Origin: an uncultured Patescibacteria group bacterium
Lineage (GTDB): Bacteria > Patescibacteriota > Microgenomatia > UBA1400 > PJMF01
NCBI GenBank assembly: GCA_905478415.1
Contig: CAJQIG010000004.1
Location: 203,523-267,522, forward strand
Length of the DNA stretch: 64,000 nucleotides
Reading direction: 5' to 3'
The notes under the pieces were generated by a model. That model worked only from the letters and a program-made list of their open reading frames with translations. It made no database searches and was not told the DNA's origin. This document shows, in pieces, positions 269 through 15,927 of this stretch; within the stretch, counting starts at the first letter, position 1; each line of letters opens with the position of its first letter. A program made the translations under genes and the position numbers.

Positions 269-1321
269 TTACTCCAGGATACCCCACAAGGTCAGATACT
301 TATTGGCCATGTTTTGCCATGTTTGTTGTCTTGCCCACTTTGTAGCCACCAAAGGAACTGCTAGCACCTTTTGGAGCTTTTTCACTATCTCTTTTGGGGA
401 TTCTACAACTGAAATCCATTTTGCAAATGGGGTCTTTTGAAGATACTCTTTTGTCAGCAAGTTGTGGTACTGAGCAATAACAGGAGTGCCCCCACTCAGA
501 GCCTCAATAATTGCCAAATACCTCGATACAAAAGCAACCTGATAGTCTGGAAAATGTTGGTCTGCCTGAACTACAAAACCATGAAATGTAACTGATAGGC
601 CATGTTTCTTCACGTACTGTATTGCTTTCTCTAGCTCAGGACCATCCCCATAGACATCAAGATGCCAACTATCATTTTTGTCTTGTAAAATCTTTAATGC
701 TTGAAGGTACTTGCAAATTCCATTATCAGCTGCAACTCTGCCAACAAACACCGCTATCTTTTCTCTTACTTTGACTGTCTTTCTTGGATGTGTAGTAACA
801 GCCCCAAACGATACCATTGTTGGCTGTATCCCATACCACCGTTGATGAAACCCACCGATACAAAGATTGCCTCTAGTAAAAAAGGTTGCAATCTGTCTCC
901 ATCGTCGATGCCATTTTAATGGCAACTCAGTCCCCTGATACCCATGAAAAGTCATGAATATTTTTTTACGTTTATATATGAGTAGTGGCAACAACGGAAG
1001 TAGCCACCAAAAGACATCGTGGACATGAATAATGTCTGCCACAAATAACACAGAGCGGTGCTGCCACATTCCGCGCCAGATAGTTATTTTATGTAAGAGT
1101 TTTGTTGCAGTATCAACTGGTATTCGAAAAATGGTAACTGCATTTTTTTCTTCTGATTTTGCTAGGTTGCTTGCATATTGTTCAGTAAGAATAGTAGTTG
1201 CTATTCCAGTTTTTTGTAGTTCCGTAGCTACTTGTTCAAGATGCTTTTCTACTCCACCCACATGTGGCCAATAAAAATGGGCTAAATGAACAACAGTTGT
1301 TTTTGTACCTGTCCGCGTCAT
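269..1321 (-). CDS. Glycosyltransferase, GT4-like (family 1 fold)
   Basis: 350 aa. The N-terminus is GT-B like (HLAHFYWPHVGGVEKHLEQVA). The C-terminus has the E...EALSGGTPVIA sugar-nucleotide binding signature. Confidence 0.65.
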   Translation of the reverse strand: MTRTGTKTTVVHLAHFYWPHVGGVEKHLEQVATELQKTGIATTILTEQYASNLAKSEEKNAVTIFRIPVDTATKLLHKITIWRGMWQHRSVLFVADIIHVHDVFWWLLPLLPLLIYKRKKIFMTFHGYQGTELPLKWHRRWRQIATFFTRGNLCIGGFHQRWYGIQPTMVSFGAVTTHPRKTVKVREKIAVFVGRVAADNGICKYLQALKILQDKNDSWHLDVYGDGPELEKAIQYVKKHGLSVTFHGFVVQADQHFPDYQVAFVSRYLAIIEALSGGTPVIAQYHNLLTKEYLQKTPFAKWISVVESPKEIVKKLQKVLAVPLVATKWARQQTWQNMANKYLTLWGILE

Positions 1322-1354
1322 GCTGCAACCTTTTGTCAGTTTCTTGTCAGATAT

Positions 1355-3205
1355 ATGTCGTTAAATACGACTATGACTTCATTGTACTACAGGGCCAGCA
1401 CATCCCTGAAAGAAAAATTATTTCTTTTACTCTTACGAATAGTATTGTTATTACAGTGCCTCATACTTATCTTGTGGTTAGCAAAACCTGCACAGGCTCA
1501 AACCTATGTGTTTGAAGATGACTTCAGTGCCGGATTCAGCAAGTGGCAGCCAACAAGGGATAGTGGACAGTACTGGGCAATTCATAATGAGACACTTTTT
1601 GGCACCATTAACAGTGGCTTCACTCTTTCAGAACTTGTCCCTCATGATGATTTTTGGAACCCAGATTGGCACAACATTATTTACGAACTTGACTATACTG
1701 CCCTAACTGGTGCCGATAAAAATATTTCATTCCATTTCGAAAATGTTGCCAACTGGTATGAGATTCATTTTAATAGTTCGGGAACGGAAGTGCTGCGCCT
1801 CAAAGATGGGACTGTTCCTTGGAAAGCCCACCGACCCACAACCCTTCAAAACAATACACCCTACCATTTCAAACTCATTCTCAATGAGGGTACTATCAGT
1901 TTCTATATCGACTCAATTCTTATCTTTGAAGAAACTGATCCCACTTTCGATAATAATTATGGAAAAATTGGACTCAAGGCAACTGCTGGCAGTGTAACGC
2001 CCACTCAAATCACGATTGATAACGTCACTGTCTCTCTAATTGAAGAAACTGATCCTCGCTTAGGAGTCAAACGCATCTCCCAACTAGATCCTCAGTGGTC
2101 CTCACTCGAATATGATACGGGCACAACTTGGGCCCCAGATGATCCCAGCATTAGCGCTTGGGGTTGTGCGCTCTCGTCTATGGTCATGATTCTTGATTTC
2201 CATGGCATCACCAAATTCCCAAGTGGAGAACTCATTACTCCAGCTACTCTTAATGCATGGCTCCTCTCACAACCCGATGGATACATAGGAGATGGATTAC
2301 TCAATTGGCTGGCAGTTACGCGATTATCCCAGCAAATCAATCAAGTTTTTGAAACACCAAAACTCGAGTTTAGTATTATTCGTGACAATCTACTTACAAA
2401 AGCAACTTCAGAACTAGTCGAGTTCCTTCGACCAGTGATTATTAACATTCCGGGACACTTTCTAGTAGCCGAAGGCATCACTCAGGTAGAAAATCCAGAT
2501 TTCTATATTCAAGATCCTGCTTTTAGTTACACGCTCCTCAGCGAGCACGAAAAAGAGCCTCTTTCCCTTCGAACGTTTACTCCCAGTTTTACTGACTTAA
2601 GCTATTTTCTTATACACTCACCGGCAACAATCGTCCCCACGCTTGCCCTACAGAAAGAAGATGAACCTCTACAGCTCGACCTACAGACAGAAGCATCAAC
2701 TCTCACAGCTATTACCACTACTGAAGCTGGGACTGCCACCTTTTCCACTAGTTCTTCACCAGCTCAAACCTTGTTGTACCTTCAAAAACCAGATTCTGGC
2801 ACCTACATACTTTCTTTTTCCGGTCCTATCGGAAGCACATACTCTCTAGAACTTTTTCTCTATACTGCAGACGGTACTGCTCAAATTGAAACACTGACTG
2901 GCATCTTTGGACCAAGGTCAGAACAGTATCAACTCACATTTTTAAAAGCAGCCGGCCCGCAACTCCTCAAACAACTCTTCAATTCTGATGACCTCTCTTC
3001 TGACCTCAGCTATTTTCTCGAAAATAAATCTATCACCTCTCACTTTATCTGGTATGAGCTCACCCGGCTGCTCTCACTCTTCGAAACATTTCCAAAACAG
3101 ACTCAAGAACTTAAAAATCATTTCCTGACACTTCTTGCAGAGCATGCTACCGATTTTGAATCAGATACTCTTACCTATTTACAGGCCAAAATTAAGCTTT
3201 TATAG
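1355..3205 (+). CDS. Secreted two-domain protein: DUF1080/LamG-like N-domain plus a papain-like C39-like peptidase domain
   Basis: The ORF is open from 1286, but the first 23 codons overlap the GT gene. The Met at 1355/1373 is followed by a hydrophobic signal peptide ending AQA|QT. The N-domain reads YVFEDDFS..FSKWQP..WAIHNETL (concanavalin-like). The mid region reads WGCALSSMVMILDFHG, which resembles the Cys box of Peptidase_C39_2/BtrH. Confidence 0.45.
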   Translation: MSLNTTMTSLYYRASTSLKEKLFLLLLRIVLLLQCLILILWLAKPAQAQTYVFEDDFSAGFSKWQPTRDSGQYWAIHNETLFGTINSGFTLSELVPHDDFWNPDWHNIIYELDYTALTGADKNISFHFENVANWYEIHFNSSGTEVLRLKDGTVPWKAHRPTTLQNNTPYHFKLILNEGTISFYIDSILIFEETDPTFDNNYGKIGLKATAGSVTPTQITIDNVTVSLIEETDPRLGVKRISQLDPQWSSLEYDTGTTWAPDDPSISAWGCALSSMVMILDFHGITKFPSGELITPATLNAWLLSQPDGYIGDGLLNWLAVTRLSQQINQVFETPKLEFSIIRDNLLTKATSELVEFLRPVIINIPGHFLVAEGITQVENPDFYIQDPAFSYTLLSEHEKEPLSLRTFTPSFTDLSYFLIHSPATIVPTLALQKEDEPLQLDLQTEASTLTAITTTEAGTATFSTSSSPAQTLLYLQKPDSGTYILSFSGPIGSTYSLELFLYTADGTAQIETLTGIFGPRSEQYQLTFLKAAGPQLLKQLFNSDDLSSDLSYFLENKSITSHFIWYELTRLLSLFETFPKQTQELKNHFLTLLAEHATDFESDTLTYLQAKIKLL

Positions 3206-4979: not shown

Positions 4980-6647
4980 TTGATGTCAGGCATGATCACT
5001 TCTCTGAAAAAATATATCTTGTTCTTGTTGGGCATCGGTATTCTCGTCTACGTACCATCATTCACTAATCAACTCTTTTGGGATGATGAACAGTTTATCT
5101 ATAACAACCAGTACGTTCAAACCTTTGATATCCCAAAAATTTTTAGCACCAACACTACTGCAGGAGCTGGAGAAGTAAGTAACTATTATCGACCTCTCAC
5201 AACTCTCTCATTTGCATTCGATTATCAATTTTGGGGAGTAAACCCAATTGGTTATCACTTAACCAATACGCTCTTACATACTTTTGCCGGTGTAGTACTG
5301 TTTCTTTTCTTATTGTCTTTAGGGATGGCGAAAAAACCAGCGGTGACCATTGCTAGTATCTTCTTACTCCATCCCCTTCAGACTGAAGCAGTTGTCTATG
5401 CAAATTCTCGAGGTGATTCATACTATACTTTGTTACTACTCTTGGGACTGCTCTCATTCTCACATCTAGTACAAAAAAAATACCTTACGGCAACATTTTA
5501 TAACTTACGTTTTACTTTTTCTAAAACTTATTTGAGAGCGCTCACCCTCGTTTTCTTTTGTACCAGCATACTAGCTAAGGAAATTGCGGTTGGGAGCGTT
5601 TTGCTTTACCTACTCACCTTTCTGTTTTTCTTGGTACAGAAAAAAACTACTCAAATTAAAACTGGCAGTGTCACTTTGTTGAGCCTGATCGTAAGTTTTT
5701 TTGGATACTTTGCACTCAGATCTTCTCTCCTACAGTTTCAAGAAAATACAAATTTCTTTGCGGGAAGCCCCTATGGTGATTCTGTTCTTGTTCGAATTGC
5801 CACATTTTCAAAGGTCGCACTCATCTACCTGAGATTGATAGTGGCACCATTCAACCTTCATATGGAACGCACTACAGAAATCGTGACTACTCTTGCTTCA
5901 CCATTTACTGCTGCACTTGTTTTTCTAATTGGCATCACTCTGTTTCTCGGCTCAATAGAGTGGAAACAAAAGAATAGTACTTGGATCTGGTTTGGCATTG
6001 TCTGGTTTTTTAGTATGCTTGGCCCTGTTTCTGGAATCATTCCCATAAACGACATCATGTACGAACACTGGCTCTATGTCCCCATGATAGGTTTCTTTAT
6101 TTCCTTGTATGGCTGTTTATCACTGCTTTTCTGGAAGCTAAAAAACCCTTGGCCTCAAGTGACTAATTATCTGGTTGGTACTCTCTTGATCTTCTACAGT
6201 GTGTTAACTATTCGACAAAACTACCTGTGGGCTACTCCAATTCGCTTCTACTCATACATATTGACGTTCCAAGAAACAGCCCGGATCAGAAACAATTTAG
6301 CAATGGCTCATGCTGAAGAAGGAAATTTGATAGAAGCTATCGATAACTATCAAAAATCAATTGCCCTCTCTGATATCTATCCACAAACACATTACAACCT
6401 CGCCAGAAGTTACATTGCCTTGGGTGAAAATGAAAAATCTCTCACAGAACTTGAGACAGCAATCTCTATGCAACCAAAGTTTTTCATTGCGTACCCATTG
6501 ATTATCGAAGTGTTACTAGAACAAAAACAGTTTGATGCAGCATCTAAATATCTGGGCATCTTTAAGGAAGAATATCCAAACCACTCGCTCACTGAGCAAC
6601 TAACGTTACTCCTGGAAAAAACCAAAACATTAGACACTACAGAATAA
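4980..6647 (+). CDS. Polytopic GT-C glycosyltransferase, PMT/TMTC-like, with C-terminal TPR repeats
   Basis: Multiple TM helices. The loop motif YYRPLTTLSFAFDYQFWGVNPIGYHLTNTLLH matches the conserved PMT/TMTC loop. The C-terminal about 150 aa are TPR-like (AMAHAEEGNLIEAIDNYQKSIAL..YNLARSYIALGE). Confidence 0.5.
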   Translation: MMSGMITSLKKYILFLLGIGILVYVPSFTNQLFWDDEQFIYNNQYVQTFDIPKIFSTNTTAGAGEVSNYYRPLTTLSFAFDYQFWGVNPIGYHLTNTLLHTFAGVVLFLFLLSLGMAKKPAVTIASIFLLHPLQTEAVVYANSRGDSYYTLLLLLGLLSFSHLVQKKYLTATFYNLRFTFSKTYLRALTLVFFCTSILAKEIAVGSVLLYLLTFLFFLVQKKTTQIKTGSVTLLSLIVSFFGYFALRSSLLQFQENTNFFAGSPYGDSVLVRIATFSKVALIYLRLIVAPFNLHMERTTEIVTTLASPFTAALVFLIGITLFLGSIEWKQKNSTWIWFGIVWFFSMLGPVSGIIPINDIMYEHWLYVPMIGFFISLYGCLSLLFWKLKNPWPQVTNYLVGTLLIFYSVLTIRQNYLWATPIRFYSYILTFQETARIRNNLAMAHAEEGNLIEAIDNYQKSIALSDIYPQTHYNLARSYIALGENEKSLTELETAISMQPKFFIAYPLIIEVLLEQKQFDAASKYLGIFKEEYPNHSLTEQLTLLLEKTKTLDTTE

Positions 6648-6651
6648 GTCA

Positions 6652-7338
6652 GTGAGTCCCGCTACAGTACTTGATACTGTGTCTTTTTTTCATCCATTAC
6701 GAACTATCGTCAGTGTTCTGCTAACACTCTTTTTTCCTCATTGTTGCTGTCTCTGCAAAAAGCCCTTCACTCCACTCTGTGAATCCTGTGCAGATAAACT
6801 AGATTTTTGCACCCAGTTTGAAACGAAAATTTTTTACCCCAACAACAAACTACAAGCTGTATGCAGGTTTGATCGAAATTCACAAAAAATAATTCATACA
6901 TTTAAGTATCAAAACATTAAAGACCTTGCTTTCTCCATTGCTAAGCTGATAGTGCTTCATGTTCCACTTCCCCCAACAGACTTCGTTACCTCTGTTCCTC
7001 CCGATCCTCTCCGGAAAAAACAGAGAGGCTTTGATCATACTCAGCTGATTGCTCAAACCATAGCCCAGTACCTAGATACACCATATATTGAGTGTTTTAC
7101 TAAAAAAGAACAAACGCAAGCACAAGCAAAAACCAGATCAAAGGCAGAACGAGAGCAAAATATCAAAAATGCTTTTTCGATTACCACTTCGTTTATAACT
7201 ACAGATATTCTAAATGGCAGTTCTATTCTGCTAGTAGACGATGTCTGCACAACTGGTACAACACTACAATACTGCAATGCATTGCTAGAAGAGTGTGGTT
7301 TCACCACCTCAAATGTAGTTTTCGCCGTCAAAATATAA
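6652..7338 (+). CDS. comF: ComF-family protein: zinc ribbon plus phosphoribosyltransferase domain
   Basis: N-terminal CxxC...CxxC ribbon, and C-terminal PRTase motif LLVDDVCTTGTTL. Confidence 0.65.
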   Translation: MSPATVLDTVSFFHPLRTIVSVLLTLFFPHCCCLCKKPFTPLCESCADKLDFCTQFETKIFYPNNKLQAVCRFDRNSQKIIHTFKYQNIKDLAFSIAKLIVLHVPLPPTDFVTSVPPDPLRKKQRGFDHTQLIAQTIAQYLDTPYIECFTKKEQTQAQAKTRSKAEREQNIKNAFSITTSFITTDILNGSSILLVDDVCTTGTTLQYCNALLEECGFTTSNVVFAVKI

Positions 7339-7412: not shown

Positions 7413-8855
7413 ATGAAAACATCAATAAAAATTGTTACACCAGGAAATTTTGCACCACACAAACACTGGTATCCCAAAGCACTTAATGCTCAAATCCACC
7501 CGCTCGTTTCCTACTTTATGAATATGGATAATGAACGAATTATTAGACGCTTTGCATATCTTAACCCATCTGTAAATGCAGATTATTTGAGTACACTATT
7601 GCAATATAAACCAAAGTACTTCAAGTGGGCTGGAGCTGACCTAATGCACACCACCACCACTAAGGGTAAAAAACAAATTGTGGTGATCGAAACAAACTCT
7701 TGTCCTTCTGGCCAAAAATCATTTCCGCTGCTTGATGAAAATAAGGAACAGGGTGGCTACAAGGAACTCATTGAAAAAACATTCCTACCGGTCTGGAAAA
7801 AAAGTCCCATTAAAACAGGTATCACCTGTGTCTTCTATGACAAAAATGAAATGGAAAATAGTGGCTATGCCGCCACAATTGCTGATAGCATTAAAAAACA
7901 AGTCTACTTAGTCGAGTATCATGAAAATGAATATGGCCAAACTGTTCGCTACAACTCTAAAACTAAAACACTTGAACTGCTGCTAAAAGACACATGGACC
8001 CCCATTAGAGCTATCTTCCGCTACGTGACCCAAAAACCTTGGAATCGCCTGCCATTGTTCTCCAAAACTAAAATCTTCAATCCTGTGATAGCTTGCTTAG
8101 CTGGCGGTCGAAACAAGCTCATGGCTTCAAAAGCTTATGACTTCTTAAATGCAGAAATTGCTGAAGCCGGACTTAAAATTCAAACACCAACAACCATTTG
8201 GGATGTTAATAAGAATGAAATTCCCCTCTGGATAGAGAAATTTGGTTACAAAGGAGTCATAAAAATTCCGTACAGCAACGCTGGCCAAGGTGTGTTCACC
8301 ATTGTAAACAAGCAAGAACTGGACGCCTTTATGGAACTTGAAATTCCGTATCAAAAATTTATTATCCAGAGGTTAATTGGGCATTATGCCTGGAGTTCTC
8401 AACATGAAAATGAACTCTTTTTTCAAGTTGGAACCATGCCAAGCAAACGCGGCAACAGCTATGTGTTTGACCTTAGAATGCTCGTCCACCATACCCCAGA
8501 AGGCATGAGGCCTCTTGGTTTATACAGTCGAAAAGCTGGCCTCCCCCTTACCGCAGATATTTCTGGAAAAGAATCAAAAGATGTCCTCATGACCAATCTT
8601 TCTGTCAAAAACGATGATGGTAGCTGGGATAGCGATGTCAGTAGACTGCTCCTCATGGATCAGCGTGACTTCAACAAAATTGGCATGAGCCTCGATGACT
8701 TAATTGAAGGCTATGTCCAGTCGGTACTCTGTGTCATTGCCATTGATAAAATGGCTCAACGATTAGTAAGTACTAAAAAGACATTTAAGAAAAAATTATT
8801 TACCTCACTTAATGATGATGAAACATTACTCAAGGAACTCTTCTCCCATGAGTAA
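7413..8855 (+). CDS. ATP-grasp-like ligase (YheC/YheD/TTL-like), function unknown
   Basis: 480 aa. Contains IKIPYSNAGQGVFTIV and FDLRMLVHH, typical of ATP-grasp B/C subdomains. The stop overlaps the next gene's start (ATGAGTAA). Confidence 0.4.
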   Translation: MKTSIKIVTPGNFAPHKHWYPKALNAQIHPLVSYFMNMDNERIIRRFAYLNPSVNADYLSTLLQYKPKYFKWAGADLMHTTTTKGKKQIVVIETNSCPSGQKSFPLLDENKEQGGYKELIEKTFLPVWKKSPIKTGITCVFYDKNEMENSGYAATIADSIKKQVYLVEYHENEYGQTVRYNSKTKTLELLLKDTWTPIRAIFRYVTQKPWNRLPLFSKTKIFNPVIACLAGGRNKLMASKAYDFLNAEIAEAGLKIQTPTTIWDVNKNEIPLWIEKFGYKGVIKIPYSNAGQGVFTIVNKQELDAFMELEIPYQKFIIQRLIGHYAWSSQHENELFFQVGTMPSKRGNSYVFDLRMLVHHTPEGMRPLGLYSRKAGLPLTADISGKESKDVLMTNLSVKNDDGSWDSDVSRLLLMDQRDFNKIGMSLDDLIEGYVQSVLCVIAIDKMAQRLVSTKKTFKKKLFTSLNDDETLLKELFSHE

Positions 8856-9738
8856 AACACCTTTTGGATGGCTTCTGGTTACAAAACATTCAAACGAGTA
8901 TAAAAAAAGACGTTTGATCGAAGAAGCTGAAAGAGCAGCTATCGATTTGCGAGTTGTCACTCCAGACCAATTTTTACTCCAAAGCACTTCTTCAAAAAAT
9001 GTGATCAGAGACATTCAGACAGGCACTCCAATCGAGGAACTGCCTACATTCGTAATTTCTTTAGTAGTAGTTGAGGAAAAAGATCCACAGGCATTTGTTC
9101 TGATGGAGCACCTTGCTGCTCTAGACTTATTACTCATCAATAACCCAACATCTGTCAGACATGCAAATGACAAAATGGCTACCTATCGAACTGCTGCTAA
9201 GATGCAAATCAGAATACCCACCACTTTTCTGCACATTCCAGGAACACTACTGACTCTGCAGGAGCACATTCAGTATCCCTGTGTCATAAAACCAAATAAA
9301 GGCCTGAAGGGAACAGGAGTAGAACTAGTACAAAATGTAGAAGATCTGACAACACACCTCAATACAGTCTCAGAACCAACACTAGTCCAAGAAGCCATTG
9401 CCGAAAGTAGCGGAAAAGATGTTCGTGTTCTTATGTTGGGAAATAAACCATTAGGATCCATGCTCCGAGAAAGTAACACTTCATTTACTTCAAATATTGC
9501 TACCGGGGGCTCTGCGAAAATGACAACTATTAATCCAAGCTACGTAGACATTGCCACTGCGCTCTTAAAAAAAATGACTATTACCTTCGGCTCAGTGGAC
9601 TTTCTCTATGGGAAAGATGAAATGGTGCTCTGTGAAGTAAATGCTAACCCGGGATTGAAAATGTTTGAAGCCGTCAGCAATCGTAATATCGCAAAAGAAA
9701 TTCTTCTCTACTGCACTAAACAAAGTCATACAAGCTGA
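8848..9738 (+). CDS. RimK-like ATP-grasp ligase (alpha-L-glutamate ligase family)
   Basis: Contains VIKPNKGLKGTGVELV, DVRVLMLGNKPLGSMLRE and MVLCEVNANPG, which are RimK/GshB-type ATP-grasp motifs. The start at 8848 is coupled to the upstream ATP-grasp gene. Confidence 0.6.
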   Translation: MSKTPFGWLLVTKHSNEYKKRRLIEEAERAAIDLRVVTPDQFLLQSTSSKNVIRDIQTGTPIEELPTFVISLVVVEEKDPQAFVLMEHLAALDLLLINNPTSVRHANDKMATYRTAAKMQIRIPTTFLHIPGTLLTLQEHIQYPCVIKPNKGLKGTGVELVQNVEDLTTHLNTVSEPTLVQEAIAESSGKDVRVLMLGNKPLGSMLRESNTSFTSNIATGGSAKMTTINPSYVDIATALLKKMTITFGSVDFLYGKDEMVLCEVNANPGLKMFEAVSNRNIAKEILLYCTKQSHTS

Positions 9739-9783
9739 AAAAAACCTCTTTTTCTGCTATAATAACCTCATAATCTAAAAAGT

Positions 9784-10202
9784 GGGGATGTACTGCTTTG
9801 ACGGAGTATGTTCATTAATATCTGCAGATCTTCTTTGACTAAGAAAGAAGTAAAACAGAGTCAAAACATAATTGCAAATAAAACTGCAAAAGGCATTTTA
9901 GATACTACCACTAATGCATTCGCATCAGTGTTCGGTACTAACTCTGCTCCTGCTTTCATCGCTGCATAAGCTTTGTAACAGGCGTGTATTCTTTTCATCT
10001 CATTGGCGTGAGGGAGTATGCGTAAACCCAGTCAATGTGACAAATAGTTTTCGTTCGTTGAAACTATCATAAGCAAATAGACGAAGATTGTGTCATGAAG
10101 GCTTGTTTGTTTTCCCTCTGACGCAACAACAAGGACAAACTACATCTGTAGATGATATTGGTGCTACTATTTCGGACGCGAGATCATTCCTCGCCATCTC
10201 CA
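9784..10202 (+). ncRNA. ssrA: tmRNA (ssrA), one-piece
   Basis: The 5' end reads GGGGATGTACTGCTTTGACGGAG (compare E. coli GGGGCUGAUUCUGGAUUCGACGGG). The 3' end reads ATTTCGGACGCGAGATCATTCCTCGCCATCTCCACA (compare E. coli AUUUCGGACGCGGGUUCAACUCCCGCCAGCUCCACCA). The 7-bp acceptor GGGGATG/CATCTCC has a G3:U70 alanine identity pair. The T-arm is GCGAG-ATCATTC-CTCGC. An internal open frame ends ...SAPAFIAA-TAA at 9967-9969, typical of a tag peptide. An intrinsic terminator follows. Confidence 0.85.
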
Positions 10203-10212
10203 CAACAATCAA

Positions 10213-10250
10213 AAGAAGAGTCTCGGGCAAGACTCTTCTTTATTTTTTTA
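10213..10250 (+). terminator. Rho-independent terminator of ssrA
   Basis: 11-bp perfect stem AAGAAGAGTCT / AGACTCTTCTT with loop CGGGCA, followed by TATTTTTTTA. Confidence 0.75.
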
Positions 10251-10407: not shown

Positions 10408-11436
10408 ATGTCTAATAGAAAACACTTACTACTAGCTGCTGTTTTGTTTGTGGCTTTTTTTGCCCTCTTTCCTAAAAATGCTCAAGCTGCACAACTTACC
10501 GAGGCCTATGTCAGACTTGATCGACTCAAAGCCTCAACCACAACTGGTGGAACGGTATGCGCAAAATTAACAACAACAGGTTCTACAGATACAACTATAA
10601 AAGTAAGCTTTCCTTCAGGTTTTACTGTCGACTCTACAGCTAGCAACTGGACTGTAACCACAACCAATTTGCCGGCAGGTGCCTCAGCCATGCCTGGTAT
10701 TAGCACCGCCTCTTTAGTTGCAAGTCAAGATGTTACTTTTCCAATAACTGACATCTCTTCTGGTGCAACGCTCTACTGTTTCAATTTTACCGGAACCAGT
10801 ACCTTAACAAATCCCACAGCCGGAAATGATAAAACTGGCACCATCACCGTACAGGCAAGTGGACCAACGGAGGTTGATTCTGGTAACTTTGCTCTTTCAA
10901 TTATTTCTGACGACCAGGTAGTTATTACGGCTACCGTTCCAGCTACCTTTAGTGTGGCCCTTGGCACAAACACCCAAGCACTTGGAACGCTGAGTACTGG
11001 TTCTGTTTCGTCTGGATCTGGAGTCTCTGTTACCATTGGCACGAATGCAGGTAATGGTTGGATTGGTTGGGTACTCAGTGCAAATCAAGCACTTGATTCA
11101 GCTACTACAGGTGACACTATCGCTACAACAGGAACTGTTGATGATACTCCAAGTAGTCTCTCTGCTGGTACAGAAGGCTATGTACTTGATGCCGACTTAA
11201 CTACTGATTCTGCAACTGGGGGATCTGGAACTGTAACCATTGATGCCGAGTACTTAGGTGCCGACACTTCTTCGGGAGGTGCGTTGAGTGCAACTTTCAC
11301 TGAGTTTGCTACTGCAAATGGACCAACTGATGGAGATGTCATTACCTTGATCCCTAGAGCTGCCATTTCGGGTCTGACACAAGCTGCCACAGATTATACC
11401 GATACCCTTACCATTGTTGCTGCTGGACACTTCTAG
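10408..11436 (+). CDS. Secreted surface protein, paralog family A (WxL-like?)
   Basis: Sec signal peptide (..FPKNAQA|AQ). The conserved N-domain (YVRLDRLKAS, NWTVTTTNLPAGASAMPG, VTFP, TNPTAG) is shared with 21288..24146. A mid IGWVL motif, the C-terminal motif DYTDTLTIVAAGHF, and a Thr/Gly/Ser-rich composition are shared with 14171..15223. Confidence 0.55.
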   Translation: MSNRKHLLLAAVLFVAFFALFPKNAQAAQLTEAYVRLDRLKASTTTGGTVCAKLTTTGSTDTTIKVSFPSGFTVDSTASNWTVTTTNLPAGASAMPGISTASLVASQDVTFPITDISSGATLYCFNFTGTSTLTNPTAGNDKTGTITVQASGPTEVDSGNFALSIISDDQVVITATVPATFSVALGTNTQALGTLSTGSVSSGSGVSVTIGTNAGNGWIGWVLSANQALDSATTGDTIATTGTVDDTPSSLSAGTEGYVLDADLTTDSATGGSGTVTIDAEYLGADTSSGGALSATFTEFATANGPTDGDVITLIPRAAISGLTQAATDYTDTLTIVAAGHF

Positions 11437-11494
11437 TCTCTTTCTTCTGTTTGTCGTTTACTCTTTTGGCATGGTACGATATATTGAGTAATAG

Positions 11495-12604
11495 ATGATC
11501 AAACGTATGTCTTTCAACTCCAAAAAACTTCTTTTATCTCTTCCTGTCCTGATTATCCTGATCTTTTCAGCCACAACTGTCCGAGCTCAGGAAACTTCAA
11601 CAGCTAGTGCTGAGACAGAAGCAGCTGCAACACCTCCACCAGCCGCCATTCAACCAATAGACTTAACCGTTTCGCCCATCACTCTCAACTTAGCTACTGA
11701 TCCTGGTAAGGAGGTAACTTCGGCCATTAAAGTGTTTAACAATAGCACTGAAAAAGAGTATTTAGAAATCAAGTTAGCTAAGTTCACCGCTGACAGGACT
11801 GGTTCGCGTCCTCAGATTAGAGACTTCGAAGCAAGTGACTCCTATCAAGACTGGCTGCAATTTGAACGGACAACATTCGAAGTGAACCCCGGCGAGTGGG
11901 AAACTATTAATCTTACATTTGCTCCACCTGCAGAGTCGGCTCTGGCTTACTACTATGCAATTATCGTCAAAAGACAAGTTGATACCACTGACGATGCCGC
12001 CACAACCATTGTCACTGGAGCACCTGCCATTTTAGTGCTCGCAAATATTTATTCGCCTAATGCTATTCAAGAGTTACAATTAGTAGATTTTTCTATGAAA
12101 AAAAAATTCTATGAATACTTGCCAGCCGAGTTCGAAATAGATATAAAAAATACAGGTAATATTCATCTCAGCCCACTTGGAAATATATTTATTGACAAAG
12201 GAGATGATAAAGATATTGCCTTACTCTCTATCAATAAAGAAAACGGATTAGTACTTCCTGACTCACAACGAACCTACACAGCAAAATGGACGGAAGGATT
12301 TCCTGTGTACGAACCAGTCATCGAAAATGGTATTGAAAAAAAAGATGAGAAGGGAGAGACAGTCTACAAACTTAACTGGGACCTCTCTAAAATTAATCAG
12401 TTCCGTTTTGGAAAATACACTGCTAACCTTTTATTAGTCTATGATAACGGTGTGCGAGACATTCCCATAGAATCAGTACTGACATTTTGGGTTTTTCCGT
12501 GGAAGATACTATTGGTAGCTCTGCTCCTCGTAGTCTTACTTTCACTGGGAGTGATGTATCCGCTACTTGCGCTCTATGGTAAAGTTAAGAAAAAAGAAAC
12601 ATAA
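11495..12604 (+). CDS. Surface-anchored protein with signal peptide and C-terminal TM anchor (DUF916/DUF3324-like)
   Basis: Signal peptide (..TTVRA|QE). The Ig-like region IDLTVSPITLNLATDPGKEVTSAIKVFNNSTEKEYLEI resembles the conserved core of DUF916 cell-surface proteins. The C-terminal TM is WKILLVALLLVVLLSLGV followed by KVKKKET. Confidence 0.45.
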   Translation: MIKRMSFNSKKLLLSLPVLIILIFSATTVRAQETSTASAETEAAATPPPAAIQPIDLTVSPITLNLATDPGKEVTSAIKVFNNSTEKEYLEIKLAKFTADRTGSRPQIRDFEASDSYQDWLQFERTTFEVNPGEWETINLTFAPPAESALAYYYAIIVKRQVDTTDDAATTIVTGAPAILVLANIYSPNAIQELQLVDFSMKKKFYEYLPAEFEIDIKNTGNIHLSPLGNIFIDKGDDKDIALLSINKENGLVLPDSQRTYTAKWTEGFPVYEPVIENGIEKKDEKGETVYKLNWDLSKINQFRFGKYTANLLLVYDNGVRDIPIESVLTFWVFPWKILLVALLLVVLLSLGVMYPLLALYGKVKKKET

Positions 12605-12610
12605 TTCTAC

Positions 12611-13546
12611 ATGGTATATCGCTTCTGGAATTTTTTTTTAGTAAGTAGCTTACTGTTATTTTTAACAGCAACTGCTCCAATGGCTTTTGCACAAGAAAAA
12701 AACAACTTTTCGCTGACTATTCAACCAGCATACCAAGAAGTTGAGATACCTGAAGATAAGAATAGTGTCGAAACAACGATAACTCTGAAAAATCCTTCTG
12801 ATACAGCCCAACAAATGGAACTATTCGCCTTTGATTTTACCCAAAGTGACCATTTTGGCTCAATTGCTTTGCTCGATGGATTCACCGGCCAGTATGCTCA
12901 TACTCTAGCTTCCTTTTTATCCTTTGAAAAAGACAGTCTCATCATTGCTGCTCAATCTGAAGAAGAAGTCGTCATTAAAATTGAAAATAGAGCTACGCTT
13001 TCTCCTGGAGGTCACTATGCTGCCATAGTAGTTCGAGCAATTGAAGAACAAGGTGCCTCGCAGCAAAAAATACTTCCAGCTGTAACATCGCTTTTGCTGG
13101 TCAGAAAAAAAAGTGGTGAACGTATTAATCTATCCCTAAAAGAACTTAGTTGGCAACCAAAAGCACTGGTAACTCACTTTCCAGAAAAAATTGACTTGAC
13201 TTTCGAGAATGGGGGAAATGTCCATGTTGTTCCAAGGGGCACCGCAGCTATTACAGACATTTTTGGCCGCGTCGTGTTTCAGGGAACAGTTAACGAATCA
13301 AGTTTGTACCTCTTACCAGGAACAATGAGAACAATTTCTACAAACTTACAACAGTCAAGAACTTTTTTTCCACTGATGTTTTATTCTTTAGAAATACATG
13401 GGAGATCAAATGTTGGTGAAGCTACTTTTTCTTCCGAAACTAGTTTTCTGTACGTTGACTGGAAATTTGTTGTGCTTTTGTTGATCATTGTGGGAGCCAT
13501 TATTTTCAGAACGGTACAAAAGAAGAAAAGAAATGAAAAAAAATAA
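12611..13546 (+). CDS. Second signal-peptide plus C-terminal-anchor surface protein (DUF916/DUF3324-like paralog)
   Basis: Signal peptide (..MAFA|QE). Contains SLTIQPAYQEVEIPEDKNSVETTITLKNPSDTAQQMEL, the same pattern as the previous gene. The C-terminal TM is FVVLLLIIVGAIIF followed by a KKKRNEKK tail. Confidence 0.45.
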   Translation: MVYRFWNFFLVSSLLLFLTATAPMAFAQEKNNFSLTIQPAYQEVEIPEDKNSVETTITLKNPSDTAQQMELFAFDFTQSDHFGSIALLDGFTGQYAHTLASFLSFEKDSLIIAAQSEEEVVIKIENRATLSPGGHYAAIVVRAIEEQGASQQKILPAVTSLLLVRKKSGERINLSLKELSWQPKALVTHFPEKIDLTFENGGNVHVVPRGTAAITDIFGRVVFQGTVNESSLYLLPGTMRTISTNLQQSRTFFPLMFYSLEIHGRSNVGEATFSSETSFLYVDWKFVVLLLIIVGAIIFRTVQKKKRNEKK

Positions 13547-14147
13547 CGTTCCCATCACCAGTATTCTGTTCATCAGTGCTGCTATTAGCATCAGCATTGG
13601 TATTTTTTGGTATCTAAGTGGAAACTCTGAGCAAAGAGTCACGGGCGGTCTTTCTGATAGAACCCGGGAGTTCTTAACGTCTCAAAAAGCCAATACTGAT
13701 TCTCTTTGGCCAGACTACACTTTCGAAGAAGGTACTGAACAAAAACAATACCAATCAGTTGAAACTAATTGTTTTACTCTCGAAATGCCCATTCCTGTCA
13801 GGAATCTGAAAACAAGTATCGAACAAGAAAGCTGTTTAGTAAAAGCTACAATTGATACTCCACATGCATTTTTAACTATTAGTTCAGAGCCTGCTCCCAG
13901 CATCCACTCTCTATCAGATCTCTCTGCTGTCAAACTACGCACAACTCAGCCAGATGTGTACACCCAAGAAAAAAGAGAAGAACTTGATAGCCCCAATAGT
14001 ATTGTTTTTTCTACTACCACAGAGGTCGTGTATTTTTACTTAGAAAATGAAACCATTACTACGGTTGCTCTGTATGACCTAGCTACCATTAATTCAGATA
14101 CGTACCAACTCTTAACCAAAGTAGTGAAGTCAGTTGGTATCCAGTAA
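13533..14147 (+). CDS. Membrane-anchored hypothetical protein (N-terminal TM)
   Basis: ATG at 13533 gives MKKNNVPITSILFISAAISISIGIFWYL (TM) followed by a soluble domain. It overlaps the previous gene's end by 14 nt. The track ORF starts at 13488, but that lies inside the upstream gene. Confidence 0.4.
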   Translation: MKKNNVPITSILFISAAISISIGIFWYLSGNSEQRVTGGLSDRTREFLTSQKANTDSLWPDYTFEEGTEQKQYQSVETNCFTLEMPIPVRNLKTSIEQESCLVKATIDTPHAFLTISSEPAPSIHSLSDLSAVKLRTTQPDVYTQEKREELDSPNSIVFSTTTEVVYFYLENETITTVALYDLATINSDTYQLLTKVVKSVGIQ

Positions 14148-14170
14148 AGAAATCTATATACTAAGAACGA

Positions 14171-15223
14171 ATGAAAAAACCAGTTATACTCATGAGCCTG
14201 ATGTTACTAGCCTTTCCGGCCAGCACTAACTATGCTCTAAAAAGTTTTGATTTTAATGCCGGTGGTGATAATTCCTTGAGTTCTTCAAGCTATGCCATGG
14301 AAGGTGCAGTGGGTGAACTAGGGAGCGATCCACTTTCTTCACTCAACTACACTACGCTTCCCGGACTCCTGTATACACAAATGGTGAACACACCATCAGC
14401 CCCAACTGTTACCAATGCTGGAGACTTCACAAATAAACTGTTAGTCACTATTGCTACTGAAGGCAACCCCTCTGACACTACCTATGCCATTGCTGTTTCT
14501 GATGATAACTTTGTCACCACAGAGTATCTGCAATCAGACAATACGGTGGGTGCTACACTCGGAGCTGAAGACTGGCAAACCTATGCCGATTGGGGCGGAG
14601 GTAGTGGAGAGTTTGCAGTTGGGTTAGTTCCTAACACAACCTATTACTTCAAAGTTAAAGCTGCCCAAGGAGAATTTACTGAAGGCCCCTGGGGTCCGGT
14701 AGCATCAGTAGCAACTTCAGCACTGAGTATTTCATTTGATATTGATGTATCTGCAACGGACCAAGAGACAGCAGCTCCATACGCTGTTGCACTAGGAGAT
14801 CTGCAATCGGGAACCATTGTCACCAGTACCGAAAAAATATGGGTTGACCTAGCTACAAATGCACCAGGAGGAGGCTTTGTGTATGTCTTTGGTTCCAATG
14901 GAGGTTTGTTGAGTCAAAAAACAAGTCATACTATTTCAGCCGTGTCAGGAAATTTAAGTAGCTTAGATGAAGGTTTTGGAATCCAATACAACAGCCTTTC
15001 AGAAAGTAGTGGCGGACCAATGGTGGTTTCATCTCCATATGACGGAGCGGGAGAAGTTGTCGGTACTATCACCACAAACCCACAAGAGATTTTCAATACC
15101 TCTGCCACTGCAATTGCTGGCGGAAGAGCTTCATTTGTGACCAAAGCTAAAATTGATGACTTAACTCCAGCTGCAGCTGACTACACTGACACCATTACTA
15201 TTATTTCGACTGCTAGTTTCTAA
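14171..15223 (+). CDS. Secreted surface protein, paralog family A (WxL-like?)
   Basis: Signal peptide MKKPVILMSLMLLAFPAS. The C-terminus AAADYTDTITIISTASF and the mid KIWVDLATN motif are shared with 10408..11436. Thr/Gly-rich. Confidence 0.5.
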   Translation: MKKPVILMSLMLLAFPASTNYALKSFDFNAGGDNSLSSSSYAMEGAVGELGSDPLSSLNYTTLPGLLYTQMVNTPSAPTVTNAGDFTNKLLVTIATEGNPSDTTYAIAVSDDNFVTTEYLQSDNTVGATLGAEDWQTYADWGGGSGEFAVGLVPNTTYYFKVKAAQGEFTEGPWGPVASVATSALSISFDIDVSATDQETAAPYAVALGDLQSGTIVTSTEKIWVDLATNAPGGGFVYVFGSNGGLLSQKTSHTISAVSGNLSSLDEGFGIQYNSLSESSGGPMVVSSPYDGAGEVVGTITTNPQEIFNTSATAIAGGRASFVTKAKIDDLTPAAADYTDTITIISTASF

Positions 15224-15927
15224 TGAACAAGCACCATTCTGGACCCTTTTTTTTTAGATCTTTGCACTTTCTTTTGATTGTAGGTCTTTTTTTTATCTTG
15301 GGACCTCTCTTTCAAGTTTCTGCTTCTTCAGTAGGACCAAAAACTTCACCAGTTTTAGCCGGAACTGTCAAAGTTACTGCTGAAGTAGCTGTTTCACCTC
15401 AACAAAAGTTTTTGATAGCAAAAAACTCATCTCTCATACTACAAAATCAGGGAATACGTGTTGGAAAACCCACTAAACTACACATTACCCTCAGGGGGTA
15501 CCAAAACCAACTCAAACCTTTTCAGGATTTTTCTATAAAAATTGTGGATGCTGATTTTGGTGTCCTTCAAAGCTACTTAGCAAAGACTGACCACACAGGT
15601 ACTGCCACACTTACTTTTATTCCAAATGCTCTCAGTCAGAGAGGTTCTTTTATACAAATTGATGTATTTAATGATAGATATACAACCACACAAGCTATTA
15701 CTTTCAGTACTCAGTATATACAGAACCTACCAAAACTACAAAATAGTTCAGAAAAATCCTTAGTTTTAAATCCTGATAATCGGGTTATATTCGTATTCTC
15801 TACCAGAGGTAAAACTGCTATGCTTACAAGAGGTAGTTATGTATTTTTTACAACCAAAAACACCAGCTCTAAAGGTAATCCGTATCTTTTTGCTGCTCGT
15901 GATGGCCCTTGGACTGTTACTACTTAA
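15223..15927 (+). CDS. Secreted hypothetical protein
   Basis: The start overlaps the upstream stop (TAATG). Hydrophobic signal region LHFLLIVGLFFILGPLFQVSASS. Confidence 0.4.
   Translation: MNKHHSGPFFFRSLHFLLIVGLFFILGPLFQVSASSVGPKTSPVLAGTVKVTAEVAVSPQQKFLIAKNSSLILQNQGIRVGKPTKLHITLRGYQNQLKPFQDFSIKIVDADFGVLQSYLAKTDHTGTATLTFIPNALSQRGSFIQIDVFNDRYTTTQAITFSTQYIQNLPKLQNSSEKSLVLNPDNRVIFVFSTRGKTAMLTRGSYVFFTTKNTSSKGNPYLFAARDGPWTVTT

What the first reader, a model, noticed from the sequence alone, without database searches (positions are those of the whole stretch)
7413..9738. Two translationally coupled ATP-grasp ligases downstream of comF
A 480-aa YheC/TTL-like ATP-grasp and a 297-aa RimK-like glutamate ligase share an ATGAGTAA overlap. 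Paired ATP-grasps usually build or extend peptide tails (RimK poly-Glu on S6, cyanophycin, tubulin-like tailing) or peptide-containing small molecules. No substrate gene is obvious nearby. Next to a PRTase-type ComF and a TPR glycosyltransferase, this could be a post-translational modification module.
Basis: partly seen in the sequence, partly recalled or inferred. Interest (0 to 1): 0.55.

Follow-up and report, generated by a model that had tools for sequence, protein, structure and literature searches.

The report
Unannotated permuted ATP-grasp ligase plus RimK
Two overlapping genes encode ATP-driven amide-bond-forming enzymes: the second is an ordinary RimK-type glutamate ligase, while the first belongs to a large, strongly conserved, uncharacterised enzyme family found in bacteria, archaea and some eukaryotes, whose product is unknown.

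Summary
ORF1 (7413-8855, 480 aa) and ORF2 (8848-9738, 296 aa) overlap by ATGAGTAA. The same tight pairing recurs in five related lineages.

ORF2 is a RimK-family alpha-L-glutamate ligase. It scores above the family cutoff but far below the cutoffs for S6 ligase, MptN, CofF and GshB.

ORF1 is not YheC/TTL-like and matches no Pfam, NCBIfam or PDB sequence. A confident AlphaFold model and motif order show a circularly permuted ATP-grasp. The ExN metal motif (residues 93-95) lies before the Lys/Gly-loop (284-293), and the closest folds are eukaryotic glutathione synthetases.

Its family has more than 3,600 members. It is 55-57% identical between this small-genome bacterium and Bacteroidota, and has archaeal and eukaryotic members.

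In two independent samples of loci, the usual partner is an AstE/AspA-type zinc deacylase (46/66 and 31/38 loci). A second ATP-grasp is also common (33/66 and 14/38). Polyamine genes, MscS and an NhaR-like regulator recur nearby.

Best reading (confidence 0.42): a two-step ligase operon builds an acidic amide or peptide-like compound, and ORF2 adds glutamate. Protein tailing is not excluded. The ComF and TPR neighbours are local synteny only.

The parts
7413..8855 (+). ORF1: 480-aa circularly permuted ATP-grasp ligase of an unannotated family
   Evidence: ORF and translation. No Pfam hit, and only faint rimK_fam and MptN fragments in swapped order. AlphaFold2 pLDDT 88.6, pTM 0.91. Best Foldseek matches are eukaryotic glutathione synthetases and 3n6x. 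More than 3,663 homologues and 899 representatives at the 50% level. Family-wide invariant residues are E93, K235, K284, G291, Q319, D353, R355, R373, T394 and N395.
8848..9738 (+). ORF2: 296-aa RimK-family alpha-L-glutamate ligase, a classical (non-permuted) ATP-grasp
   Evidence: Pfam RimK E 6.6e-29. TIGR00768 scores 153.1 bits against a cutoff of 143.4. PDB RimK structures 7qys/7qyr match at E 2e-21 and 4iwx at 2e-18. K148, the Gly loop, D251, E263 and N265 are conserved in four homologues.
8848..8855 (+). ATGAGTAA overlap: the ORF2 start lies inside the ORF1 stop region (translational coupling)
   Evidence: Read directly from the sequence. Tight junctions are conserved in L088, L090, L094 and L095.
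8832..8837 (+). Shine-Dalgarno-like AAGGAA, 10 nt upstream of the ORF2 ATG
   Evidence: Read from the sequence. L088 has AAGGAAAAA at the equivalent position.
6652..7338 (+). ComF-like phosphoribosyltransferase. Upstream neighbour and context only, probably not part of the module
   Evidence: TIGR00201 comF scores 89 bits, below its cutoff of 233, and Pribosyltran also hits. Synteny is kept only in close relatives.
9784..10205 (+). tmRNA gene directly downstream. It marks the 3' boundary of the operon and is not part of it
   Evidence: Rfam RF00023 at 95.7 bits and ARAGORN. A promoter-like site lies at 9735-9763 and a terminator at 10212-10241.

Best explanation
ORF1 and ORF2 form a two-gene operon of ATP-dependent carboxylate-amine ligases acting one after the other on the same acidic, amino-acid-derived compound.

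ORF1 performs the family-defining ligation. Like other ATP-grasp enzymes, it would activate a carboxylate as an acyl-phosphate. By analogy with the glutathione-synthetase fold, this is probably the carboxylate of a glutamyl- or aspartyl-type substrate. It then joins that carboxylate to an amine, either an amino acid or possibly a polyamine. ORF2, a RimK-type enzyme, then adds one or more alpha-linked L-glutamates to the product.

In most other lineages ORF1's partner is an AstE/AspA-type zinc deacylase that would cleave the same kind of N-acyl-Glu/Asp bond. This gives a synthesis and removal pair, often with a GshB-like second ligase. The recurring neighbours suggest a role in salt, osmotic or charge homeostasis.

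Shown: both folds, intact catalytic motifs, the coupling, and the conserved partnerships. Inferred: the order of action, the substrates, a small-molecule rather than protein target, and the physiological role.
For: ATP-grasp fold and circular permutation:
- The AlphaFold model has pLDDT 88.6.
- Foldseek matches human, yeast and potato glutathione synthetases at E 7e-10 to 1e-8, and 3n6x at 1e-8. Classical ATP-grasps match more weakly.
- The MptN model's C-terminal positions 246-273 hit ORF1 residues 72-102. The rimK_fam positions 94-170 hit ORF1 residues 248-322.
- hhalign aligns ORF1 246-322 with RimK 113-184.
- E93/N95, K284 and G291 are invariant or nearly so down to 27% identity.

Conserved coupling to a second ATP-grasp:
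- Five lineages of the window clade keep the pair.
- 33 of 66 genome loci and 14 of 38 metagenome loci have a second ATP-grasp next to the ORF1 homologue.
- L090 has three ATP-grasps in a row.

Hydrolase partner:
- An AstE/AspA-like gene is adjacent in 46/66 and 31/38 loci.
- This includes an archaeon with AsnC/Lrp regulators and a Chondrinema plasmid carrying GNAT-AstE-ORF1.

Small-molecule flavour:
- The Bacteroidota partner is GshB-like (1gsa E 1e-12; glutathione synthase model 118-127 bits, below cutoff).
- The nearest model for the AstE-like protein is DoeB.
- Arginine decarboxylase, agmatinase and a deoxyhypusine/homospermidine-synthase-like gene occur nearby in several different arrangements.
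- MscS is a recurrent neighbour.
- A LysR regulator whose best match is NhaR lies directly upstream in 10 loci.

Other points:
- ORF1 also occurs in eukaryotes. The one eukaryote-like contig examined, L093, has neither partner nearby.
- No acidic-tailed or small conserved ORF lies nearby.
- From the literature: RimK makes poly-alpha-glutamate as well as S6 tails, as summarised in PMC12239564.
Against: - No substrate or product has been identified. No member of the ORF1 family is characterised, and the literature searches found nothing.
- The only proven cellular role of RimK is protein tailing of S6. The S6 gene is not in the window, so that role could not be excluded.
- The window clade lacks the AstE-like partner. 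Context from Bacteroidota may therefore not transfer.
- ORF2 diverges very fast: 27% identity to L088, where ORF1 is 79% and the neighbours 49-75%. This sits oddly with a tight two-step pathway.
- The strong conservation of ORF1 could equally reflect a conserved macromolecular substrate.
- Ligase and peptidase pairs are also typical of protein-tail systems.
- Polyamine, MscS and NhaR-like neighbours are each present in only a minority of loci.
Confidence: 0.42

Rival explanations
1. This is a protein-tailing module. [quoted passage not shown] ORF1 is a second 'writer' that adds or primes a residue on the same or another protein. The AstE/AspA-like, carboxypeptidase-fold enzymes seen elsewhere are the 'erasers', as with TTLL and CCP or RimK and RimB.
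For: - ORF2 passes the RimK family cutoff and its best solved relatives are RimK proteins.
- The PHROG hit is annotated as an S6-modifying enzyme.
- ORF1 is the most conserved gene of its neighbourhood: 79% identity against 49-75% for the neighbours.
- L090 carries MATCAP, ATPgrasp_ST and 7TM-transglutaminase genes next to the pair.
- Ligase and peptidase antagonism is documented for RimK and RimB (PMC12239564).
Against: - ORF2 scores 77 bits against the S6-ligase equivalog cutoff of 331. It evolves far faster than expected for an enzyme with a fixed ribosomal target.
- ORF1's closest folds are small-molecule ligases.
- The common second ligase is GshB-like, not RimK-like.
- AstE, AspA and DoeB relatives are, from established knowledge, small-molecule deacylases.
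- No candidate substrate ORF is conserved next to the pair.
Confidence: 0.28
2. The two enzymes are functionally independent. ORF1 makes its own product, as it does where it occurs without a second ligase. ORF2 is a stand-alone RimK. The overlap reflects only the compact gene packing of a small genome.
For: - ORF1 occurs without any second ATP-grasp in half or more of the loci, and in L008 of the same clade.
- The conservation of ORF1 and ORF2 is very unequal.
- The genome is tightly packed.
Against: - The adjacency with a gap of 8 nt or less persists in five lineages in which ORF1 identity falls to 65% and the flanking genes change completely.
- In Bacteroidota a different kind of classical ATP-grasp occupies the same position after ORF1 in 33 of 66 loci. 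This points to a recurrent functional need for a second ligase.
Confidence: 0.15
3. ORF1 is a polyamine-conjugating enzyme in the manner of glutathionylspermidine or trypanothione synthetase. It amidates an acidic amino acid or peptide, made or extended by the second ligase, onto putrescine, homospermidine or spermidine. The AstE-like enzyme is the matching amidase. This is a sub-case of the best explanation.
For: - SpeA-like, agmatinase and deoxyhypusine/homospermidine-synthase-like genes are linked to ORF1 in at least four different gene orders.
- 3n6x, annotated as a putative glutathionylspermidine synthase, is among the best fold matches.
- Polyamines are universal, which fits the occurrence of ORF1 in eukaryotes.
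Against: - Polyamine genes are near ORF1 in only 13/66 and 8/38 loci, and none are near it in the window clade.
- E. coli glutathionylspermidine synthetase itself is not among the top 50 fold matches.
Confidence: 0.15

Closest known systems
Eukaryotic-type glutathione synthetase (human GSS 2hgs/8fbz, yeast 1m0w, potato 5oes)
   Same: It has a circularly permuted ATP-grasp fold of about 470-480 residues. The ExN metal-binding motif lies N-terminal to the ATP-binding Lys/Gly-rich loop. These are the best Foldseek matches, at E 7e-10 to 1e-8.
   Different: Identity is only 11-14% and TM-score about 0.43. There is no hit to the Pfam glutathione-synthetase models and no sequence-level PDB hit even with a family profile. 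No gamma-glutamylcysteine ligase is in the context, and the usual partners are an AstE/AspA deacylase and a second ligase.
Bacterial circularly permuted ATP-grasp proteins (COG2308 type; 3n6x Mfla_0391, 'putative glutathionylspermidine synthase')
   Same: The permuted ATP-grasp fold matches at Foldseek E 1e-8. Some database records label Tenacibaculum homologues 'circularly permuted ATP-grasp superfamily protein'.
   Different: No Pfam model of any kind, including the CP_ATPgrasp models, hits ORF1. From my own recollection, COG2308 proteins sit with alpha-E and transglutaminase genes, and those are not the neighbours seen here.
RimK (ribosomal protein S6 : L-glutamate ligase / poly-alpha-glutamate synthetase)
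   Same: ORF2 passes the RimK family model. It aligns over its full length with solved RimK structures and keeps the catalytic residues.
   Different: It scores far below the S6-ligase equivalog cutoff (77 against 331 bits). No RimB-type protease or S6 gene is nearby. It is coupled to a permuted ATP-grasp instead, and it diverges unusually fast.
Two-step peptide ligase pathways and ligase/hydrolase pairs (GshA-GshB; NAT8L / RIMKLA-B / aspartoacylase for N-acetylaspartate and NAAG; bifunctional glutathionylspermidine synthetase/amidase)
   Same: These share the logic of successive ATP-dependent amide ligations paired with an AstE/AspA-family or other amidase. A GNAT-AstE-ORF1 arrangement occurs in Chondrinema, and ORF1 followed by GshB-like and AstE genes is common in Bacteroidota.
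   Different: The first ligase here is a different, permuted ATP-grasp. No product is known. The window clade has no deacylase next to the pair.

Membership tests
ATP-grasp superfamily (ORF1) | ATP-grasp fold | tested here: met
   The AlphaFold2 model has pLDDT 88.6. Foldseek gives 36 PDB matches at E<=1e-3, all among the listed ones being ATP-grasp enzymes: GSS, synapsin, RimK, Ddl, PurK, LysX.
ATP-grasp superfamily (ORF1) | ATP-binding Lys followed by a Gly-rich loop, and a hinge Gln/Glu | tested here: met
   The segment 281-GVIKIPYSNAGQGV-294 and Q319 carry the motif. K284, G291 and Q319 are invariant in 37 sequences down to 27% identity. This segment aligns to RimK 113-184 by hhalign and to rimK_fam positions 94-170.
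ATP-grasp superfamily (ORF1) | Mg2+-binding E-x-N motif | tested here: met
   The motif is 92-IETNSCPSG-100. E93 is invariant and N95 is at least 90% conserved. It parallels ORF2's 262-CEVNANPG-269.
Circularly permuted ATP-grasp (eukaryotic glutathione-synthetase topology) | E-x-N motif lies N-terminal to the Lys/Gly loop, the reverse of classical ATP-grasps | tested here: met
   In ORF1, ExN is at 93-95 and the Lys/Gly loop at 284-293. In ORF2 the order is K148 then E263/N265. The MptN model C-terminus (246-273) hits ORF1 residues 72-102. The top fold hits are the permuted enzymes.
Glutathione synthetase, eukaryotic type (as a family member) | Match to the family's sequence models or to solved members at the sequence level | tested here: not met
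   There is no Pfam hit at E<=0.01. Neither phmmer nor a family-profile hmmsearch against PDB finds any ATP-grasp chain. Identity in the fold alignments is 11-14%.
   No Pfam family is reported for ORF1 at E<=0.01. The precomputed Pfam field is empty for all 120 listed homologues.
RimK family alpha-L-glutamate ligases (ORF2) | Score above the curated cutoff of TIGR00768, with full-length alignment | tested here: met
   ORF2 scores 153.1 bits against a cutoff of 143.4, covering model positions 4-275 of 276. Pfam RimK gives E 6.6e-29.
RimK proper (S6--L-glutamate ligase equivalog) | Score above the NF007764 cutoff | tested here: not met
   76.8 bits against a cutoff of 331.
RimK proper (S6--L-glutamate ligase equivalog) | A ribosomal protein S6 with a C-terminal Glu-Glu in the same genome | not testable with these tools
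   tblastn finds no rpsF in the 64-kb window. The rest of the genome could not be fetched.
MptN / CofF / LysX / GshB (other RimK-superfamily equivalogs, ORF2) | Score above each curated cutoff | tested here: not met
   MptN 100 against 350, LysX 93 against 276, CofF 57 against 300, GshB 56 against 272 bits.

The most novel reading that the evidence does not exclude
The ORF1 family is the 'writer' of a compound or modification not yet described. The product would be an acidic N-acyl or omega-linked Glu/Asp conjugate, possibly of a polyamine. AstE/AspA-type deacylases would erase it, and it would serve salt, osmotic or charge homeostasis in Bacteroidota, archaea, small-genome bacteria and several eukaryotic lineages. 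In the window's clade the eraser is absent and a fast-evolving RimK-type enzyme extends the product with glutamate.
Probability: 0.3. Interest if true: 0.75.

Novelty: new variant of a known kind. Interest (0 to 1): 0.58.

Why it matters
ATP-grasp ligases make glutathione, peptidoglycan precursors, cofactor tails, storage polymers and protein tails. ORF1's family is large. It has more than 3,600 sequences and about 900 clusters at 50% identity. It is 55-57% identical between distant bacteria and about 49% identical to a fungal member. It matches none of the Pfam, NCBIfam, PHROGs or PADLOC models, has no sequence relative among solved structures, and has no characterised member.

The family sits in a reproducible module with a deacylase and a second ligase. 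Recurring neighbours include mechanosensitive channels, polyamine synthesis genes and a regulator whose best match is NhaR. Together these give a concrete, testable route to a possibly new metabolite or modification involved in ionic stress. They also explain why a very reduced genome keeps this gene.

For annotation, the result corrects the label from 'YheC/TTL-like' to a permuted, glutathione-synthetase-like ATP-grasp. It also provides motifs for building a family model.

Tried and rejected
- PDB sequence searches with ORF1 alone and with a 40-sequence profile found only chance hits.
- I looked for informative domain fusions in long homologues. There were none. The Trichinella protein carries an RFC1-like AAA domain in its N-terminal part, which I take to be a merged gene model.
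- PHROGs and PADLOC gave no hit for ORF1. ORF2 hits only a phage family annotated as S6-modifying. A defence or phage origin is rejected.
- ORF1 has no match in phage genomes and only one in a plasmid.
- There is no AstE/AspA homologue in the window.
- There is no S6 gene in the window. The only acidic-tailed ORF is IF-2, 50 kb away. No conserved small ORF lies around the pair.
- A functional link to ComF and the TPR protein is rejected, because that synteny is confined to the closest relatives.
- Literature searches on permuted ATP-grasps, AstE with RimK, homospermidine with ATP-grasp, and aspartoacylase with mechanosensitive channels found nothing on this family. The Iyer et al. 2009 amidoligase survey was not held.
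- A first attempt to scan metagenomes with a 12-sequence alignment failed for lack of conserved stretches. A 4-sequence alignment worked.
- I considered glutathione synthesis itself. It is rejected as a membership claim, because there are no family-model hits and no gamma-glutamylcysteine ligase in the context.
Full report
**1. The observation**

ORF1 runs 7413-8855 on the + strand and encodes 480 aa. The longest reading of the second gene starts at 8812 (308 aa). Homologues from related contigs align from the Met of MSKT... at 8848, which gives 296 aa ending at 9738.

The ORF1 stop (TAA, 8853-8855) and the ORF2 start (ATG, 8848-8850) share the string ATGAGTAA. An AAGGAA lies 10 nt upstream of the ATG.

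Upstream lie a ComF-like phosphoribosyltransferase (6652-7338) and a polytopic membrane protein with C-terminal TPRs (4980-6647). No glycosyltransferase domain was detected in the TPR protein. Downstream the operon ends at a tmRNA gene at 9784-10205. That gene has its own promoter-like site and terminator. Base composition is the same as in the rest of the window.

**2. ORF2**

- Pfam RimK matches at E 6.6e-29.
- NCBIfam TIGR00768 (RimK family) scores 153.1 bits, above its cutoff of 143.4, over the full model length.
- The nearest solved proteins are Pseudomonas and E. coli RimK, at E 2e-21 and 2e-18.
- The catalytic Lys, the Gly loop and the D/E/N metal ligands are conserved.
- It scores far below the cutoffs for every specific equivalog: S6 ligase 77/331, MptN 100/350, LysX 93/276, CofF 57/300, GshB 56/272 bits.

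ORF2 is therefore a RimK-family glutamate ligase of unassigned substrate.

**3. ORF1**

It has no Pfam family at E<=0.01 and no PHROG or PADLOC hit. It has no sequence relative in the PDB, even when searched with a 40-sequence profile.

NCBIfam gives only two faint fragments, and they are informative. The rimK_fam positions 94-170 match ORF1 residues 248-322. The C-terminal MptN positions 246-273 match ORF1 residues 72-102. The order is swapped relative to a classical ATP-grasp.

An AlphaFold2 model built from 40 homologues is confident (pLDDT 88.6, pTM 0.91). Its best Foldseek matches are the eukaryotic-type glutathione synthetases (human, yeast, potato; E 7e-10 to 1e-8). Next comes 3n6x, a bacterial permuted ATP-grasp, at 1e-8. 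Classical ATP-grasps (synapsin, RimK, Ddl, LysX) follow at 1e-5 to 1e-3.

The sequence agrees with this. The segment 92-IETNSCPSG-100 is the ExN metal motif. The segment 281-GVIKIPYSNAGQGV-294 is the Lys/Gly-rich ATP loop. The latter aligns to ORF2 by hhalign.

E93, K235, K284, G291, Q319, D353, R355, R373, T394 and N395 are invariant in 37 family members down to 27% identity.

ORF1 is thus an intact, circularly permuted ATP-grasp ligase. It is not a YheC/D or TTL relative, and it is not a sequence-level member of the glutathione-synthetase family.

**4. The ORF1 family**

The word-indexed search found 3,663 proteins at E<=1e-3 among the 8,000 candidates scored. The exhaustive profile search found 899 representatives at the 50% level, 274 of them at E<=1e-30. 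Almost all are 'hypothetical'. A few are called 'ATP-grasp domain-containing' or 'circularly permuted ATP-grasp superfamily'.

Identity to Bacteroidota proteins (Saprospiraceae, Tenacibaculum, Lewinellaceae) is 55-57%. The closest relatives, at 65-82%, come from small-genome MAGs. NCBI labels these Pacebacteria or Woesebacteria, and in one case, implausibly, Pseudomonadales.

Homologues also occur in:
- an archaeon (32% identity);
- the fungus Podila (49%);
- the red alga Cyanidium;
- the nematodes Trichinella and Trichuris;
- the amoeboid Fonticula;
- the bdelloid rotifer Rotaria.

In a neighbour-joining tree the window clade is monophyletic and sister to the Bacteroidota group. The eukaryotic sequences are scattered.

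**5. Is the pairing meaningful?**

Within the window clade, the ORF1 homologue is followed by a RimK-type gene at a gap of 8 nt or less, or with an overlap, in L088/L089, L090, L094 and L095. The flanking genes change completely among these loci. Only L008 lacks the RimK gene.

The two genes evolve at very different rates. Identity of each window gene to its L088 counterpart:

| Gene | Identity |
|---|---|
| GT4 glycosyltransferase | 51% |
| 639-aa protein | 52% |
| Dus | 75% |
| TPR protein | 56% |
| ComF | 49% |
| ORF1 | 79% |
| ORF2 | 27% |

ORF2 has only seven detectable relatives in the word-indexed search, at 38-50% identity apart from its own cluster representative.

**6. Family-wide context**

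I examined two independent samples of ORF1-family loci.

| Feature near the ORF1 homologue | 66 genome loci with at least 2.2 kb of downstream flank | 38 metagenome loci of more distant members with adequate flank on both sides |
|---|---|---|
| Classical ATP-grasp | 33 (immediately downstream) | 14 (within two genes) |
| AstE/AspA-type zinc deacylase | 46 (within next two genes) | 31 (within two genes) |
| Both | 29 | 12 |
| Either | 50 | 33 |

The core module is therefore ORF1 plus an AstE/AspA-like enzyme, with a second ligase as a frequent accessory.

In Bacteroidota that second ligase is GshB-like (glutathione synthase model 118-127 bits, below cutoff; 1gsa E 1e-12). It is only 23-27% identical to the window's RimK-type ORF2. 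Two different kinds of classical ATP-grasp thus occupy the same slot after ORF1.

Recurrent further neighbours, in several different gene orders, are:
- arginine decarboxylase, agmatinase and a deoxyhypusine/homospermidine-synthase-like gene;
- MscS channels;
- a LysR regulator whose best model is NhaR (131 bits, below cutoff), directly upstream in 10 loci;
- AsnC/Lrp regulators in the archaeon;
- a GNAT acetyltransferase in Chondrinema.

L090 has three ATP-grasp genes in a row, with a MATCAP, ATPgrasp_ST and 7TM-transglutaminase set beside them.

**7. Interpretation**

I favour a two-step ligase operon, at confidence 0.42. ORF1 would form the family-specific amide bond on a glutamyl- or aspartyl-type carboxylate. 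ORF2 would append alpha-linked glutamate. Elsewhere an AstE/AspA-like enzyme would undo the bond. The physiology would relate to salt, osmotic or charge balance.

Grounds for preferring a small-molecule product:
- ORF1's structural neighbours are small-molecule ligases.
- The alternative partner is GshB-like.
- The known chemistry of AstE, AspA and DoeB is small-molecule deacylation (established knowledge).
- The regulators and neighbours point to amino-acid and ion metabolism.
- On the one eukaryote-like contig examined (L093), ORF1 has neither partner nearby.
- No candidate substrate ORF is present.

The main rival is protein tailing (confidence 0.28). It is supported by ORF2's RimK identity, ORF1's strong conservation, the MATCAP and transglutaminase context in L090, and the known RimK/RimB writer and eraser logic (PMC12239564). 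I could not test S6 because rpsF is not in the window.

Independent function of the two genes (0.15) is disfavoured by the persistence of the junction and by a second ATP-grasp recurring in that position.

A polyamine-conjugation version (0.15) is a sub-case of the main explanation. It is supported only by minority gene linkage.

**8. Novelty and score**

The kind of system, an ATP-grasp amidoligase operon, is known. The ORF1 family, its permuted architecture without any family model, its cross-domain distribution and its conserved deacylase and ligase module are not described in the libraries or papers I could search.

I rate it a new variant of a known kind, with interest 0.58. It is not startling, but it offers a well-defined route to a possibly new metabolite or modification.

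Noticed in passing
window 9784-10205 (+): A tmRNA gene lies directly after ORF2 (Rfam 95.7 bits). Its predicted tag peptide is unusually long, 31 residues: ANKTAKGILDTTTNAFASVFGTNSAPAFIAA. It has its own promoter-like site (9735-9763, overlapping the ORF2 stop) and a terminator (10212-10241).
   Followed up: partly
window 44061-46619 (-): The SufB gene is interrupted by an intein with a LAGLIDADG homing-endonuclease domain (Pfam SUFBD_core, Intein_splicing, LAGLIDADG_3, Hint_2).
   Followed up: no
window 60319-61791 (-): IF-2 is short, at 490 aa. It is the only ORF in the window with an acidic C-terminus (...TVEED), and it lies next to NusA. I did not examine whether it could be a RimK-type substrate.
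   Followed up: no
window 10408-17926 (+): A run of co-directional genes (342, 369, 311, 219, 350, 234 and 695 aa) follows. The first two have no Pfam or NCBIfam hit, and the same genes carry no precomputed Pfam domain in the identical contigs L001/L002. The first has a signal peptide and is Thr/Ser/Gly-rich. These are probably surface or pilus-like proteins of a small-genome bacterium.
   Followed up: no
window 8848-9738 compared with L088 9445-10335: ORF2 is only 27% identical to its positional counterpart in a relative, whereas ORF1 is 79% and neighbouring genes are 49-75%. This reflects either very fast evolution or replacement by another RimK-type gene.
   Followed up: partly
L090 9424-17443 (GCA_900089805.1): In this relative a third ATP-grasp (ATP-grasp_4, 405 aa) follows ORF1 and RimK. 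A MATCAP peptidase, an ATPgrasp_ST gene, a 7TM inactive-transglutaminase and a transglutaminase-core gene lie beside them, resembling the Pseudomonas rlo operon logic. A LAGLIDADG gene sits in an otherwise gene-free stretch upstream, possibly an rRNA intron.
   Followed up: no
L077 5751-6728 and L029 6611-6910 (also L013, L058, L061, L075, L084, L085): In Bacteroidota a deoxyhypusine/homospermidine-synthase-like gene is repeatedly followed by a small (about 99 aa) protein with a very acidic C-terminus (...EEEIEGEEQDD) and no family hit.
   Followed up: no
P0150, P0154, P0157/P0305, P0172, P0183, P0212 (homologues of window 7413-8855): ORF1 homologues are present in Podila (fungus), Rotaria (bdelloid rotifer), Cyanidium (red alga), Trichinella and Trichuris (nematodes) and Fonticula. 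They are scattered in the tree. The pattern suggests repeated horizontal transfer or patchy retention.
   Followed up: partly
L174 5941-6810 and nine other metagenome loci: A LysR-type regulator whose best NCBIfam match is NhaR, described there as a transcriptional activator (131 bits, below cutoff), sits directly upstream of ORF1-family genes on the same strand.
   Followed up: partly
window 6652-7338 (+): The ComF-like PRTase also matches the PADLOC models PsyrT and ShosT (E 1e-15 and 3e-10). This probably reflects only the shared phosphoribosyltransferase domain.
   Followed up: no
window 1286-3205 (+): A 639-aa protein has weak Peptidase_C39_2 and Laminin_G_3 hits and is divergently placed to a GT4 glycosyltransferase. 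It is conserved in synteny in L088 and L008.
   Followed up: no
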